Source of the DNA: Thalia democratica
Lineage: Eukaryota
DNA length: 64,000 nucleotides
Assembly (NCBI GenBank): GCA_965202585.1
Contig: OZ241830.1
Coordinates: 59,892,001 to 59,956,000, forward strand
Reading direction: 5' to 3'
Shown piece after piece: positions 54,001-63,000 of this stretch. The position numbers are program-made. How positions within the stretch are numbered: position 1 is the stretch's first letter; each line of letters starts with the position of its first letter.

Positions 54001-57000
54001 AAAATAAATTCAAATACTTTTCTAACAACTATCGAGTCTTTTCTATACGTATCACCGTTATTCTAAAACTCTAATTTATTTTCTCCGGATCAACGAATCT
54101 TTCCAACGTGACCTTTATTGCCTTCCACGAGCATCTTACGTTGGGACTCTCTTCGGAAGTGCACACCTTCAACGCTTCCAGTCCCGAATGGCCCTTCATC
54201 ACTGCTTCTGAGAGAATGTTTCTGAACACGAGTTTTGAAAACAGGCAAACGTACAGCTGGGCGTCGATTCCGTGACATCTGTTTAAATGTAACATGTTTG
54301 TTTTAAGTTTGTAGTATTCAAAATAACGCAATAGTTTAGTATTACTTATCAACATGCGAAAGCTAATTGAAGATTATAATGTATTTCTTGTTAAGTTTCC
54401 TGATAATTATGATATGTTTATCGTAAAATGTTTCAGCTTTTCAAATTTTAATGACTGATTTAATTTAAACTAAAGCCTAGTCTAAAGTATTTTTACTTGG
54501 CATTATAAATGACAAGACTTATGTTAATTTAAGTTACTATTTCAAGTAATCTAAATTACTAAACATAAGTTTTTAAGTATTTTTTTATAATAAAATTTAC
54601 TTATTTGAATACGGGTCACACATGCCAATCAGTTCTTCGCAATTTTGTCCGTACTCGTTGAAAAACTTCTCCTTGTGCAAAAGATCGTGGGAGTGACACA
54701 TGGGTGCGAGTAGGCAAATTACGTTGCTCATAAACCTGGAAATATATATTGTAAACTAAAACAAATAAAAAATTTAAAAGCAAAAACAATAAATCGAAAG
54801 AGCACTGAATATAGTATAACACAAAAGTTTTTTTTTGTTCAAATTACTTAATATTTTATGACCTTAAAAATTTATCACCTATTATTGTAAAAGGTTAAAA
54901 GAAGCTTGTAAATTTGTTCTTCGAAATAATATCATGTACGATTTTTTACCTAAAAAATGTTTGAATAAAAATGTAAATGCTTCTAATTAATTAATATAAT
55001 GATAACAGTATTATGAACTACTTTAAACTAAAAAAAAATTTTATAAAATAGTAAATACTTCTGGTAAGTGTTTTGCTGTATACTTCTGATAGGAAGAAAA
55101 TAAAAGTGGTCAACATTAATGAGCTTAACTTCAAAAGCTTTTGTTACAATCATTTGAGTAGGCTCAAAACCAAAAAGTAGAATTCTGTAAAAATGTTTTT
55201 TTAGTATAACAACAAACGTACAATCATATTTGAATACAAAACTTAAACAAATCATTTAAAAAATGTTTTTTTCAGTTAATGATCTTAAACTAGATTAAAA
55301 CTTGGTATGATTTTAACAATTCAAAGTACTTTTAATAAATTTTGTTTTATTACACAGTTAACTTTCAAAAGTTGTTTTATTTATTTTTATAATTTTTTTA
55401 GTTTTTTGACTCATCAGATATTCTGGAAATGTACAAAACCTTACTACAATGTTACGTACTATTCACAACAGAAAAAATAATAATATCAAGTCCAAACAAT
55501 TCGCAGTAATTATAAATTTTAAAACTTATATTCAAAAACTTTTAATTTATAGAAAAGAAAAACTTTACTCTATAAGTATTATGGTTAACAAGATAAATGT
55601 TTTAATCTTATTTAAGTTACAATCACACTTTTTTAAGTTTAATTTTTATTTAACAACTGGAAAACTTAAGTATATATAAAGTATGTTTATTTAAGTTAAC
55701 GTTTGAGCATAAACAAAAATTTTATTGTACATACATAAGATGTTAAACTTTTCTTAAGTCTAACCCCTTTTGGTAAAAGTTGTTAAACACTTCAGCTATA
55801 TTTTTGAGCAAAAACAAAGCTGTTTTTTGAGAATTGTCCTGCTTGCTTATGCGTTTATTTAATGCAGAGAGCTCCTTACAATCATTCTCAACGCTTGGAT
55901 TGCACAAAGATAAATCTTGATCAAATCGTTCCACAATATAACTGCAAAAAAAGTATTGTTAAGATAAAATCTAAGATTTTTGTAACTTTTAGATGATAAA
56001 ATTAAGCATAACCACATAGTAAAGTTAAGGTTAAGTTTATGATTATCAAGTTCACAAAATATGAATTAGGTTTTTTTTGCTGTAAAACTTTTCAATCATG
56101 AATAGGAATTGGCGTAGATTGATTGACTTACAAACTTCTTTTAAGTGTTTTTACATTAAGTAATGCACAAACTACTAAGTATTAGTTTAAATTTTATAAA
56201 CTTTTGTGATATTAAACTTTAAAAATTAACTTTAATTATAAGAAACTTTAAGGTAGGATTGAGCAACAGTCAGCAGGTCAGATTAACCAAAATAAAGTCT
56301 TTGGTAAGCTGCGTTACTTAGAAAATTTTGTTATAAAAGTTAATTAAACTTTTTAAAACAAAACTATGTTTAAATTTTACAAACAATTACTTAAATGATT
56401 AATTCAATTGCAGCAAACGCAGAAAAATTTTATGAGTTTAAACCGATTTTTCGCTAAAATTTAAAGCTTTTCAAAATATCACCTGATGTAGGTTTTTACC
56501 TGATGTAATGACCTGATGTAGGCTGTTAAACTAACTAAAATTACAATATACTTTACTTACATCTAGTGTACAATAAACTATATTGTTTAACGTATATACA
56601 TATTTAATGCATTTTTTAAAGCTTTTTGGTTAGTTGTTTTTACCAATGTGAAGTTTTAAAAAATAGTTCTCTGTTTATAATATAAATTTCAGATAAAAAA
56701 AACTGTCATAAACAAACAAAAAAAGATTAATTTTGCATTTAAATTTACCTAATAAAATGAATTTCTGTGGGCGAACTTGACTTGCAGACGTCCTTCTGAT
56801 TGGCTGAACGCGCGCATGCTGCGTAAACTCGGGGAATACCCGGCCAATTTTGCATTCTAAGCAATCTAGCCAGGGTTTCTTTCTTTTGGAAAAAGCTGTC
56901 GCCGTTCTCGTATTCAAACAACGTCACTCCATTCATGTCCTTTCTATAATGTTTATAAGCGGCTTTATAATTTTAATATTTTTGTTTATAACTACCTTAA

Positions 57001-60000: not shown

Positions 60001-63000
60001 TTAACAACAAAAAATACTAAATTTTATTCATTACATAAATATGAAAAACCGTGAAACGTAAAAAACAAACTTAAGAAATTTATGTTTATATACTATGACT
60101 TAAATTTTAAAGCAATGTAACATATATAGTTTCAAATGTATCAAGCTACTATAGTTTGGAAAAAGTATAATAAATCTTTTGTTTAACTAATTACTATCAA
60201 AATTTTACAATTAAAAGTTATATTACTGAAGAAGTTTAGTTTTGCATATAAGTTTGTTAATCCATGCTATCGTGACGCACCGTGTCATTTAGTCGTTGTG
60301 TCAAAGTGACGTATCGTGTCATTTTGACGCTGTGCCAAAGTGACGCCCCGTGTCATTTTGTCGCTGTGCCAAAGTGACCCTCCGTGCCAAAGTGACGCAC
60401 CGTGTCGTTTTGTCGCTGTGCCAAAGTGACCCTCTGTGCCAAAGTGACGCACCGTGTCATTTTGTCGCTGTTCCAAAATGACGCACCGTGCCTAAGTGAC
60501 GCACCGTGTCATCTTGTCGCCGTGCCAAAGTGACCCTCTGTACCATAGTGACGCACCGTGTTATTTTGTCGCCGTGCCAAAGTGACCCTCCGTGCCAAAC
60601 TGACGCACTGTGCCAAGGTGACGCACCGTGTCATTTTGTCGCTGTGCCAAAGTGACGCACCGTGTCTATTTGACGACCGTGTCATTTTGTCGCTGTGTCA
60701 TTCTGACCCGCTCCCTAAAAACAAACCTTTTTAGAACTTTTACGATAATATGGCTCAAATAGTTAATATTAATAAATAGCAGGAATAAATGTAAACAAAT
60801 GTGATCAAAACCAACCTCTGGTAATATTAAACTTCTCAAACACAGGAATTTGTGTCTTATTGCATGTTTCTGTAAAATAAATTAGTAAAAAAAAGTTAAC
60901 TTAAAAGACCTTTAAAAGATAAAATGCTTAATTATACTACAAAAACAATTTTTTATTATTAACTAAAAACATAACACTTTCTGTATATTAAGTCATGCGT
61001 TCTTTTTTAAATAGCAAAAAAAATCAATGTTTTGTAAAAGAGCTTCGAATCAAACTATTAGTTTAAAAAAAAAATATTAATAAAGTTGTAGTAAACATAA
61101 CAGTTACAAAGTTACTGTTTGAATTTTGAAAGTTTACTAATCAAACAAAGTTAAAGAAAAATTTTAAAAGCAGAAACTATCAAATATATCTTTTTACTCA
61201 TACTTTAAGTGTACAAACCATGTTTTTTCTTAACGTATGTTTTATGTTCTAGTGTTTAAACTTCAAAACATTGTTTCATTTAAAGATTCTGATTAAAATG
61301 AACTTTATTTTTAGTAAATTTATATATCTTAATTTATTAGTTACTAATACACTATTTTTAATTTCGTTGTACAAATTTGTTTTTATTTAATTCAGAAATA
61401 TATTTTTATAACTTATAAAGTAATGCATACAATCTGTTTTGAAACTATTAATTCTTAAAGTCTTTCAATTTAAAAATTTTTTTTAATTAAACACTGTATC
61501 TTAGTTAATAAAAAAAAACTTACTTCTATATTTTATGTTGTTAAAGCTGAGGATGACAACATCATATGCTAACAGTGACAAAAGCAGTACACCATAAAAT
61601 CCAGTTTTATTTCTAACAAATAAACGAAATAAATAGTTACTTTTCATAACTAACACCTAACTAAATTCATCATTATATAAAAAACCAAAGGTAAATTTTT
61701 TTAAGTATGTAAAGTTAAAATGAAACATAGCTTCCATTGTAAAACTAAAAATGAAACTTATTATCACTGTTGACTTAATAAATACAGTGCGTAAATAAAA
61801 ATTCAATATTAGTAAGTTTGATTTATTTACGTTAGTTAGTGATATTTATATTGCTAGTTAATAATACTAGTTAGAAAAACAATATGTTCTTTTTGTGCTT
61901 AAAAATCAAAACGGTTTCTTTATACCTCCAGGCTAAGTTTTTTCAAATGGTACACTAAGCGGAGAAAAGTATCAAAACTTATTTCATTTTAAGAAAATGT
62001 TTTATAAATTTAGCAAATATTTATAGTTAAGTTATTTTAGGACTTTATTATATAAAACTTATAAAAAACTTTTATTTTGTACATATGTAAATACACAAAG
62101 TAAAACAGTTGTAGTATTTTTTTTTCAAACAAGAAGGATAAATTAATATACTTCTATTTTATATTAAAATATATTCACTAAGCAATACACACAGCGGAAA
62201 AATAGTTTAAAGTTCTTTAAATAAGAATCAATTGGTATTAAGTTTAAATATATAACTTATTTATCAATTTAATATCTTAAATTGCTAAATAACTAGTTTA
62301 TTTAATTCATATCTACTATAATACACAAAATATATTTATAGTTTAAGGTTTTTTTTTTAATAACAACTACAATAACAAATAATAATAAATATTTGCAAAA
62401 ATTATATTTGCTGAAATTATACGTGTATGTATGAGATCAAAAACGTTTTTCTAAACATTATTTTATTAAGGTTGTATTACTTAGTACAATGAAAAGTATT
62501 GATTGAATTTAACAAACAATATCTATTCAATTTTAACACTAACACATAAATAAAAATCAATAAACTAAATAAGTAAGCTACCTACTGAGAATTTTAATAC
62601 AGATTTTTGAAATGTATGGAAAGTATATAAAAATATGAATACAGTATTTTTTCCTATTTTGTTATATACTTTTGTTAACAAACAGTACTTTTTAAATTAT
62701 TAAAATCACGTTTTGATAATTCCGATACTAACAAAACGAATATTAAAAACTCAAAGCACTATTCAAATATCTACAACTGATATATTATGCCTCTTGCCCG
62801 TATTGTTTTTTAAATGTGCAACCGTATACAAACAAACCATGTAATATAAGTTCACAGTTATAAATATAAGTAAATATTTGTGTAAAAACAGAGTACTTTA
62901 AGCTCAATTATGCACATTAGAATGCTCTAATCTATGTTTAAGTAGAGGGTTGATATTTTCAACTGTACATAATTATACAGAGCATCTGGTTTTTTGTTCT

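What the first reader, a model, noticed from the sequence alone, without database searches (positions are those of the whole stretch)
54071..61647. Hidden 7-exon gene for a probable secretory-pathway pseudokinase (PKDCC/POMK/DIPK-like)
Seen: four exons appear in the ORF track only as unrelated fragments, and exon 1 (signal anchor) and the 54735-54613 frame are missing from it. Joined, they give a 396-aa type II membrane protein with a kinase-like motif order. Compared with PKDCC from memory: the Gly-rich loop (GSGYTK) is replaced by NSMLLE, the catalytic-loop Asp (LLDFRPRQ) by Gly (LLFGFEPTQ), and the metal-binding DLD by NVD. Luminal cysteines are retained. Inference: a catalytically dead Golgi or extracellular kinase-fold protein, possibly an allosteric partner in the way FAM20A activates FAM20C, or a glycan-binding scaffold. 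Caveat: POMK is active despite non-canonical motifs.
Basis: partly seen in the sequence, partly recalled or inferred. Interest (0 to 1): 0.68.

Follow-up and report, generated by a model that had tools for sequence, protein, structure and literature searches.

The report
Eight-exon gene for secretory pseudokinase
This is a real, spliced animal-type gene for a membrane-anchored protein of the secretory pathway that has the shape of a protein kinase but has lost the residues kinases need to work, a known kind of "dead enzyme" in a small, so far unnamed family.

Summary
It has 8 exons, not 7, and encodes 418 aa, not 396. A 54-nt exon at 60869-60816 was missed. The exon starting at 54735 ends at 54601, not 54613. 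All 7 introns are GT..AG. The eight in-frame pieces are collinear with database protein P0001, with 393 of 411 residues identical.

No exon, and none of the nine full-length proteins of the gene's own clade, matches a Pfam family. The family is tiny: 28 representatives among 1.84 billion proteins.

AlphaFold models of P0001 (pLDDT 86.5, and 69.8 with a narrower alignment) match only protein kinases among the rows Foldseek listed. A sister clade keeps the canonical lysine, Asp, Asn and Asp. It is homologous at 99.4% hhalign probability.

In this gene those positions read Gly268, Gln273 and Asn286, and strand beta-3 has no lysine. The same positions vary across its clade, while 12 cysteines stay fixed.

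Verdict: a type II secretory-pathway pseudokinase, a new member of a known kind. Loss of activity is inferred, not assayed.

The parts
61524..61647 (-). Exon 1: start codon, short basic cytoplasmic tail and signal anchor; ends in phase 1
   Evidence: tblastn to P0001 residues 1-41, E 1.4e-18. 39 of 41 residues identical.
61543..61599 (-). Codons for residues 17-35, the hydrophobic signal anchor (type II topology inferred from the basic residues before it)
   Evidence: The best 19-residue window has a mean Kyte-Doolittle value of 2.06. It is a helix in both models.
60816..60869 (-).
   Evidence: AG and GT flanks. tblastn to P0001 residues 42-59, E 4.2e-06. 17 of 17 in-frame residues identical. 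A Cys sits at this column in 10 of 15 relatives.
57904..58141 (-). Exon 3: low-confidence acidic stalk, N-terminal helices, Cys101, strands beta-1 and beta-2 with the degenerate Gly-loop equivalent
   Evidence: 72 of 78 residues identical. Secondary structure.
56749..56943 (-). Exon 4: strand beta-3 without a lysine (residues 142-151, 56936-56907), helix alpha-C with Glu161, the conserved alpha-C/beta-4 loop and beta-4
   Evidence: (62 of 64 residues identical). This exon was the query.
55765..55941 (-). Exon 5: beta-5/hinge, a Cys217...Cys225 insert and helix alpha-E
   Evidence: (56 of 58 residues identical).
55059..55184 (-). Exon 6: remnant of the catalytic loop (residues 264-273, 55183-55154; Gly268 at 55171-55169, Gln273 at 55156-55154) and of the DFG motif (residues 285-289, 55120-55106; Asn286 at 55117-55115, Asp288 at 55111-55109)
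   Evidence: Sequence read. The hhalign pairing with the canonical clade is and the column table. 38 of 41 residues identical to P0001, with no difference at these sites.
54601..54735 (-). Exon 7: cysteine-rich activation-segment region.
   Evidence: 44 of 44 residues identical to P0001. The four extra residues are kept in P0001, P0002 and P0003.
54071..54278 (-). Exon 8: C-lobe helices (alpha-F onward), Cys351, 361, 389 and 399, and the stop codon
   Evidence: (65 of 68 residues identical).

Best explanation
The window carries an intact, spliced 8-exon gene on the minus strand, 61647-54071, encoding 418 aa.

Shown:
- The exon structure.
- Collinearity with a 96%-identical database protein (393 of 411 residues).
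- A confident bilobal protein-kinase fold in the model.
- Homology to a sister clade that keeps the canonical lysine, Asp, Asn and Asp.
- Replacement of these in this gene: no lysine in beta-3, Gly268, Gln273, Asn286.

Inferred:
- The protein is a type II membrane protein. It has a short basic N-terminal tail, a signal anchor at residues 17-35, a flexible glycosylated stalk to about residue 70, and a disulfide-rich kinase-fold domain facing the lumen of the ER or Golgi, or shed outside the cell.
- It cannot transfer phosphate by the canonical mechanism.
- It works as a non-catalytic binding module. Selection keeps the fold (cysteines, hydrophobic core) and a clade-specific surface (the alpha-C/beta-4 loop and C-lobe positions such as Asp355, Ser364 and Trp401). 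That surface would bind a partner, as the secreted DIPK-family pseudokinase Allnighter and FAM20A do.
- The partner is unknown.
For: Gene:
- All 7 introns are GT..AG, the phases are consistent, and the total is 1257 nt.
- tblastn finds all 8 exons.
- 393 of 411 residues are identical to P0001, leaving exactly the 7 junction codons.
- P0001's only contig is 1453 nt, too short for a 7.6-kb intron-bearing locus. I infer that it is a spliced transcript.

Selection: P0003 is 38% identical over 98% of the length.

Fold:
- The AlphaFold model made with 29 sequences has pLDDT 86.5 and pTM 0.79. Foldseek against PDB gives at least 500 hits at E <= 0.001, and all 45 rows listed are protein kinases, the best at E 4.9e-08.
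- A model from the 9 degenerate-clade sequences alone has pLDDT 69.8 and the same topology. All 46 rows listed are kinases.

Sequence link:
- The profile of 15 relatives against PDB gives 58 of the 60 listed hits as kinase domains (my reading of the molecule names). They align at the catalytic loop and DFG motif, best E 0.0015.
- hhalign of the near clade against the canonical clade gives 99.4% probability, E 1.5e-21, over 224 columns.

Loss of catalytic residues, near clade of 9 | canonical clade of 6:
- Asp166 column: G G Q K N D N D K | D x6.
- Asn171 column: Q Q Q Q D D H S E | N x6.
- Asp184 column: N N V S S D F D S | D x6.

22 positions are fixed in the canonical clade but variable in the near clade. 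Ten of them lie in residues 267-289 (catalytic loop to DFG), 2 in the Gly-loop equivalent and 6 in residues 322-333. Meanwhile 12 of P0001's 14 cysteines are kept in at least 13 of 15 sequences.

Tree: the 9/6 split has SH-aLRT support of 99.

Topology: anchor at residues 17-35.

Precedent: Allnighter lacks Asp184, Asp166 and Glu91, shows no autophosphorylation and is secreted, and kinase-dead Dipk1C rescues its loss (PMC10203134, passages read).
Against: - Nothing has been assayed.
- The sequence link to kinases is marginal. P0001 alone and the 3-sequence profile find no kinase in PDB. No Pfam family is matched by any exon or by P0001-P0009.
- Some features could support residual nucleotide or metal binding. 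Gln273 is invariant in P0001-P0004, and in POMK a Gln at this position is a working metal ligand (PMC5142810, passages read). An acidic residue two places after the lost Asp (Asp288) is kept in 13 of 15 sequences. The alpha-C Glu161 is kept in P0001-P0003.
- I had no access to model coordinates, so I could not look for relocated catalytic residues in the pocket.
- The tree was a quick search, was rooted by assumption, and included the three catalytic columns among its 407.
Confidence: 0.75

Rival explanations
1. It is an active but atypical secretory-pathway kinase (of protein or glycan) that builds its active site from residues at non-canonical positions, as POMK does.
For: In POMK, beta-3 Lys and alpha-C Glu are absent yet the enzyme is active, and a Gln at the Asn171 position binds metal (PMC5142810, passages read). 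Here Gln273 is invariant in P0001-P0004, an acidic residue at position 288 is kept in 13 of 15 sequences, and Glu161 is kept in P0001-P0003.
Against: POMK still needs its catalytic Asp and the first Asp of its DLD motif (same paper). Here those two columns hold G/G/Q/K and N/N/V/S even among the four closest relatives. No single chemistry is conserved there. Across the 9-member clade the invariant residues are cysteines, glycines, prolines and a few others. Of those others, only Gly263 and Phe256 lie near the active-site segment, and neither could act in catalysis.
Confidence: 0.12
2. The reader's 7-exon, 396-aa product is the main product, and the 54-nt exon and the longer exon 7 are minor or absent.
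For: Skipping the 54-nt exon keeps the frame, and both donors of exon 7 are in phase 2, so the shorter forms are readable.
Against: P0001 and P0002 both contain the 18 residues, and P0001, P0002 and P0003 all contain the four extra residues. The skipped exon carries Cys44, present in 10 of 15 relatives. Without it the protein would have an odd number of cysteines, 13. The 54601 donor (GTAAAT) is nearer the donor consensus as I recall it than the 54613 one.
Confidence: 0.05
3. It is a decaying or non-functional gene copy whose kinase motifs drifted because nothing selects on it.
For: Catalytic positions vary freely.
Against: All 8 exons are open and have intact splice sites. The degeneration is local: 12 cysteines and 22 invariant columns persist across a clade whose members are only 21-40% identical to P0001. 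A near-identical protein comes from a contig short enough to be a transcript.
Confidence: 0.03

Closest known systems
Allnighter / DIPK (FAM69, Pfam PIP49_C) family, including the pseudokinase DIPK2B
   Same: [quoted passage not shown] Some members have lost Asp166, Asp184 and other residues and act without kinase activity (PMC10203134, passages read; PMC9941534, passage on CXorf36). FAM69/DIPK clusters are among the nearest language-model neighbours, at scores 0.95. Two distant relatives (P0026, P0029) give sub-threshold PIP49_C matches.
   Different: Neither this protein nor any of its 8 nearest full-length relatives gives a PIP49_C or PIP49_N match. There is no EF-hand insert: beta-3 and alpha-C are four residues apart in the model. 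Here the beta-3 lysine is lost and the alpha-C Glu kept, which is the reverse of Allnighter.
PKDCC / VLK (extracellular tyrosine kinase)
   Same: The nearest language-model cluster for both P0001 (0.96, 213 of 256 features) and the canonical relative P0026 (0.97) carries the automatic name 'PKDCC-like'. Both are secretory kinase folds.
   Different: PKDCC is an active kinase that HMMER places in the classic kinase families (PMC3696010, discussion passage). This protein matches no kinase Pfam model and lacks the catalytic residues. No direct alignment with PKDCC was possible, because no PKDCC sequence was available from a tool.
POMK (SgK196)
   Same: Both are type II membrane proteins with a luminal, disulfide-stabilised kinase fold. 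Both have non-canonical motifs, a Gln at the Asn171 position and no beta-3 lysine (PMC5142810, passages read).
   Different: POMK keeps a catalytic Asp (MCD motif) and the first Asp of DLD, and both are essential. Here those positions are Gly268 and Asn286 and vary among close relatives. A POMK cluster appears only at rank 30 for P0026.
FAM20A (pseudokinase activator of FAM20C)
   Same: It is a secretory-pathway pseudokinase paired in evolution with active paralogues (PMC5865150, abstract in the search listing; PMC9941534, passage). Here too a degenerate clade sits beside a canonical clade.
   Different: It belongs to a different kinase-like family. There is no Fam20C Pfam match at E <= 10. 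No pairing with an active partner has been tested here.

Membership tests
Protein kinase-like fold (superfamily level) | Bilobal fold: five-stranded N-lobe with helix alpha-C, and a helical C-lobe with catalytic-loop and DFG strands | tested here: met
   Models with pLDDT 86.5 and 69.8. Foldseek against PDB gives at least 500 hits at E <= 0.001 in each search. All 45 and all 46 listed rows are protein kinases, with TM-score by target of 0.37-0.56.
Protein kinase-like fold (superfamily level) | Significant sequence or profile similarity to known kinases | tested here: inconclusive
   The 15-sequence profile has a best E of 0.0015, and 58 of the 60 listed hits are kinase domains. The near-clade profile alone has a best E of 1. 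P0001 alone gives only chance LysR hits at E 0.24. The link is transitive, through the canonical clade (99.4%).
Catalytically competent protein kinase | Beta-3 Lys, catalytic-loop Asp and Asn, and DFG Asp (PKA Lys72, Asp166, Asn171, Asp184) | tested here: not met
   There is no Lys in strand 142-151, and the other three positions are Gly268, Gln273 and Asn286. The window's exons carry the same residues. The alpha-C Glu161 is kept.
DIPK / FAM69 (Pfam PIP49_C, PIP49_N) | Match to PF12260 at or above its gathering score | tested here: not met
   None of the 7 exon pieces scanned, P0001, P0002 or P0003-P0009 matches (the 17-aa exon 2 piece is too short to scan). Only P0026 and P0029 match, at 22.4 and 23.6 bits against a cut-off of 25.2.
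DIPK / FAM69 (Pfam PIP49_C, PIP49_N) | EF-hand insert in the N-lobe (PMC3696010; PMC10203134) | tested here: not met
   Beta-3 ends at residue 151 and alpha-C starts at 156 in the model. There is no insert in P0001-P0004. P0005-P0009 do carry inserts at this place, which I did not examine further.
PKDCC / VLK | HMM match to the classic kinase families Pkinase or PK_Tyr_Ser-Thr (per PMC3696010) and intact catalytic residues | tested here: not met
   No such Pfam match at E <= 10. The catalytic residues are absent. The 'PKDCC-like' label of the nearest Atlas cluster is an automatic name and a lead only.
PKDCC / VLK | Orthology by phylogeny with named PKDCC, DIPK and POMK sequences | not testable with these tools
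   No tool gave me sequences of these families.
POMK | Catalytic Asp in an MCD motif and first Asp of DLD, both essential (PMC5142810) | tested here: not met
   Gly268 and Asn286 occupy those positions. The Gln at the Asn171 position is shared.
FAM20 / Four-jointed | Match to the Fam20C Pfam model | tested here: not met
   No match at E <= 10 for P0001 or P0002. The listed Foldseek rows are classical kinases, not FAM20 structures.
Secretory-pathway (luminal) protein | N-terminal signal anchor and conserved paired cysteines | tested here: met
   Residues 17-35 have a mean hydropathy of 2.06 and follow basic residues. There are 14 cysteines, 12 of them kept in at least 13 of 15 relatives. This is computational only; localisation has not been observed.

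The most novel reading that the evidence does not exclude
The degenerate clade arose from the canonical sister clade as a dedicated non-catalytic partner. The dead kinase fold would bind and switch on, or steer, the active secreted kinase of the sister clade. That would be an independent re-invention of the FAM20A-FAM20C arrangement in a lineage-restricted family that no curated model yet covers.
Probability: 0.15. Interest if true: 0.65.

Novelty: new member of a known kind. Interest (0 to 1): 0.4.

Why it matters
Secreted and Golgi kinases and their dead relatives (FAM20A, Allnighter, DIPK2B) control biomineralisation, glycan synthesis and neuronal proteostasis, and only a handful of such families are known.

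This gene shows a further small clade in which the kinase fold and its disulfides are kept while the whole active site has been released from selection. It has 28 representatives among 1.84 billion proteins and is invisible to Pfam. The clade sits next to a sister clade that keeps the active site.

That pairing is a clean natural test case for how pseudokinases arise, and it gives a concrete candidate pair for a partner assay.

For annotation, it shows that the locus is one 8-exon gene and not scattered ORF fragments.

Tried and rejected
- **Pfam, exon by exon:** 7 pieces gave no family. One match (TASOR, E 0.11) I take as chance. The 17-aa in-frame piece of exon 2 is too short for that tool and was not scanned.
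- **Pfam on P0001 and P0002:** only AAA_14 at E 0.1, taken as chance.
- **P0001 alone against PDB sequences:** only LysR regulators at E 0.24, taken as chance. The 3-sequence profile against PDB had a best E of 1.
- **Word-indexed protein searches:**
  - Exon 4 as query gave 2 proteins among 6 candidates.
  - P0001 gave 3 among 2271.
  - The 15-sequence alignment gave 4 among 6643. The only named hit was an uncharacterised Ciona savignyi protein.
- **Paralogue in the window:** none. tblastn hits outside the locus all have E >= 0.058.
- **Rfam and tRNA scans of the window:** nothing.
- **Careful tree:** that call brought no answer from the script machine. I used a quick LG+G4 tree instead.
- **Not used:**
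  - Complex prediction, because I claim no specific binding pair.
  - Genome contigs, because it holds only bacteria and archaea.
  - Metagenome contigs and viral contigs, which were closed.
  - Paper supplements, which were closed. The alignment figures and supplementary trees of PMC3696010 and PMC10203134 might bear on motif comparisons.
- **Literature:** two full-text searches found no paper describing this clade.

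
Full report
**Scope and rules.** The window is AT-rich (GC 0.22-0.36 in 2-kb steps). It carries multi-exon animal-type genes (TIG, G8, CEMIP beta-helix and MARVEL exons). I do not take it for human. Whole-protein analyses used database proteins returned by the tools, chiefly P0001.

**Observation.**
- Exon by exon, Pfam finds nothing (no family among the 7 pieces scanned, apart from a chance TASOR match at E 0.11).
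- A homology search with the 64-aa in-frame piece of the exon at 56943-56749 found two proteins among 6 candidates. P0001 is 418 aa and 97% identical. P0002 is 402 aa and 82% identical.
- tblastn of P0001 against the window finds eight collinear segments, including 60870-60817.
- A script that handles each exon separately confirms eight exons: 61647-61524, 60869-60816, 58141-57904, 56943-56749, 55941-55765, 55184-55059, 54735-54601 and 54278-54071.
- All seven introns are GT..AG, and the total is 1257 nt, or 418 codons plus a stop. Exon GC is 0.27-0.47. Intron GC is 0.19-0.24, or 0.34 for intron 2.
- Piece by piece, 393 of 411 residues equal P0001. The pieces cover P0001 residues 1-41, 43-59, 61-138, 140-203, 205-262, 264-304, 306-349 and 351-418, leaving exactly the seven junction codons.
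- P0001's only contig is 1453 nt, while the coding region here spans 7.6 kb. I infer that the contig is a spliced transcript of a close relative. That supports the junctions, though not in this very genome.
However, it would drop Cys44, which is present in 10 of 15 relatives.

**Family.**
- P0001 and P0002 match no Pfam family. P0001 matches no solved structure by sequence.
- The word-indexed search with P0001 found 3 proteins among 2271 candidates.
- A profile of these three, run by HMMER over 1.84 billion representatives, found 28 proteins at E <= 0.001, 13 at <= 1e-10 and 7 at <= 1e-30.
- I scanned 17 of these against Pfam. None reached a curated cut-off. Two distant ones, P0026 and P0029, gave PIP49_C at 22.4 and 23.6 bits against a cut-off of 25.2.
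- The only named member is an uncharacterised Ciona savignyi protein, P0020.
- The language-model Atlas puts P0001 nearest to a cluster automatically named PKDCC-like (0.96, 213 of 256 features), then to FAM69/DIPK clusters. P0026 has the same first cluster at 0.97, with a POMK cluster at rank 30. These are leads, not tests.

**Fold.**
- An AlphaFold model of P0001 built on a 29-sequence alignment has mean pLDDT 86.5 and pTM 0.79. It has low confidence only in residues 39-70.
- Foldseek against PDB returns at least 500 matches at E <= 0.001. All 45 listed rows are protein kinases (AAK1, GAK, EGFR, ABL, PknB and others), with best E 4.9e-08, 315-397 aligned columns and TM-score by target of 0.37-0.56.
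- To check that this does not rest on the canonical relatives, I refolded P0001 with only the nine degenerate-clade sequences. pLDDT fell to 69.8, the order of strands and helices was essentially the same, and all 46 listed Foldseek rows were again kinases.
- By sequence, the 15-member profile hits PDB kinases only marginally (best E 0.0015) but consistently. Of the 60 rows listed, 58 are kinase domains by their names and 2 are not (a ribosomal protein and a scavenger receptor). The matches align at the catalytic loop and DFG motif.
- The 3-member profile alone finds nothing.

**Active site.** The 15 full-length relatives split into two groups.
- Six (P0019, P0020, P0022, P0024, P0026, P0029) keep the motifs of a working kinase: a Gly-rich turn, a lysine in beta-3, Asp and Asn in the catalytic loop, and an Asp-x-Asp after beta-8.
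- Their profile aligns with a bacterial LanKC kinase domain from beta-3 to DFG (E 0.008).
- hhalign of the near clade against this canonical clade gives 99.4% probability, E 1.5e-21, over 224 columns. It pairs Gly268 with the catalytic Asp, Gln273 with the Asn and Asn286 with the metal-binding Asp.
- The column table, nine near-clade members against six canonical ones:
  - Catalytic Asp: G G Q K N D N D K, against D six times.
  - Asn: Q Q Q Q D D H S E, against N six times.
  - Metal Asp: N N V S S D F D S, against D six times.
- Strand beta-3 of P0001 (residues 142-151) holds no lysine in any register.
- 22 positions are at least 5 of 6 identical in the canonical clade but shared by at most 3 of 9 in the near clade. 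Ten lie in residues 267-289, two in the Gly-loop equivalent (130, 133) and six in residues 322-333 of the activation-segment region.
- By contrast, 12 of P0001's 14 cysteines are kept in at least 13 of 15 sequences.
- The near clade also has its own fixed positions, such as Gln170, Trp172, Arg177, Asp355, Ser364 and Trp401.
- A quick maximum-likelihood tree (LG+G4, 407 columns, no rows dropped) separates the nine from the six with SH-aLRT support of 99. P0006 and P0008, which still have the two Asp residues, branch first among the nine. The root is assumed, and the three catalytic columns were not removed.
- None of the 18 differences between the window and P0001 touches these sites or a cysteine. 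I read the window's own codons for Gly268, Gln273, Asn286 and Asp288 directly.

**Topology.** Residues 17-35 form the most hydrophobic 19-residue stretch of exon 1 (mean 2.06). They follow Arg8, Arg12 and Lys14, and both models make them a helix. The stalk (exon 2 and the start of exon 3) is low-confidence and carries two N-x-T sequons. From this and the even number of conserved cysteines I infer a type II, lumen-facing protein.

**How it most likely works.**
- Shown: gene structure, fold, homology to a canonical clade, and loss of the four canonical residues.
- Inferred: it cannot catalyse phosphotransfer, and it acts as a binding module in the secretory lumen or outside the cell.
- The pattern is a conserved fold with an active site that is free to vary, plus clade-specific conserved surface positions around the alpha-C/beta-4 loop and the C-lobe. 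That is what a protein selected for binding, not catalysis, would show.
- Known parallels:
  - Allnighter is a DIPK-family protein without Asp184, Asp166 and Glu91. It is secreted, shows no autophosphorylation, and is rescued by kinase-dead Dipk1C (PMC10203134, passages read).
  - FAM20A activates FAM20C (PMC5865150, abstract in the search listing; PMC9941534, passage).
- The main rival is a POMK-like atypical active site (PMC5142810, passages read). Gln273, Asp288 and Glu161 keep that door open. But POMK's two essential Asp residues have no conserved counterpart here.

**Comparison and novelty.** The protein works like the secreted pseudokinases. It is not a member of any curated family by the tests I could run (see the membership table). 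Two full-text searches found no paper on this clade. I rate it a new member of a known kind.

**Left open.**
- Direct comparison with PKDCC, DIPK and POMK sequences: none were obtainable.
- Geometry of the pocket: I had no coordinates.
- Metagenome and viral contig collections, and paper supplements, were closed.

Noticed in passing
window 58737-59549 and 60086-60675 (inside intron 2 of the gene): A large inverted repeat. The longest arm pair is 539 nt at 96% complementarity with 536 nt between the arms. The arms are themselves built of tandem units of about 17/18, 34 and 52 nt. It looks like a foldback-type non-autonomous mobile element, and it explains the higher GC of intron 2 (0.34).
   Followed up: partly
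window about 2032-18883, + strand: ORF fragments with four TIG/IPT matches, two G8 matches (one above the cut-off, one sub-threshold) and CEMIP beta-helix matches. They are probably exons of one large fibrocystin-like or CEMIP-like gene upstream of the finding.
   Followed up: partly
window 42125-42987 and 50220-50880, + strand: Two similar two-exon MARVEL-domain genes in tandem, about 8 kb apart.
   Followed up: partly
window about 26400-31800, + strand: A duplicated block: near-identical ORFs at 26426-26710 and 29622-29891, and at 27150-27434 and 30799-31044. One copy has a long Thr/Pro-rich mucin-like repeat ORF (27573-28565). That ORF runs into a stretch of N, which I left as it is.
   Followed up: no
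relatives P0005-P0009 (alignment A2, between beta-3 and alpha-C): These five near-clade proteins carry inserts of about 20-45 residues, some acidic, at the place where DIPK proteins carry their EF-hand (PMC3696010). P0001-P0004 and the window gene have none.
   Followed up: no
window exon 1, residues 36-38 (about 61542-61534): P0001 has an N-x-T sequon just after the anchor. The window has Ile in place of Thr, so that sequon is absent here.
   Followed up: no
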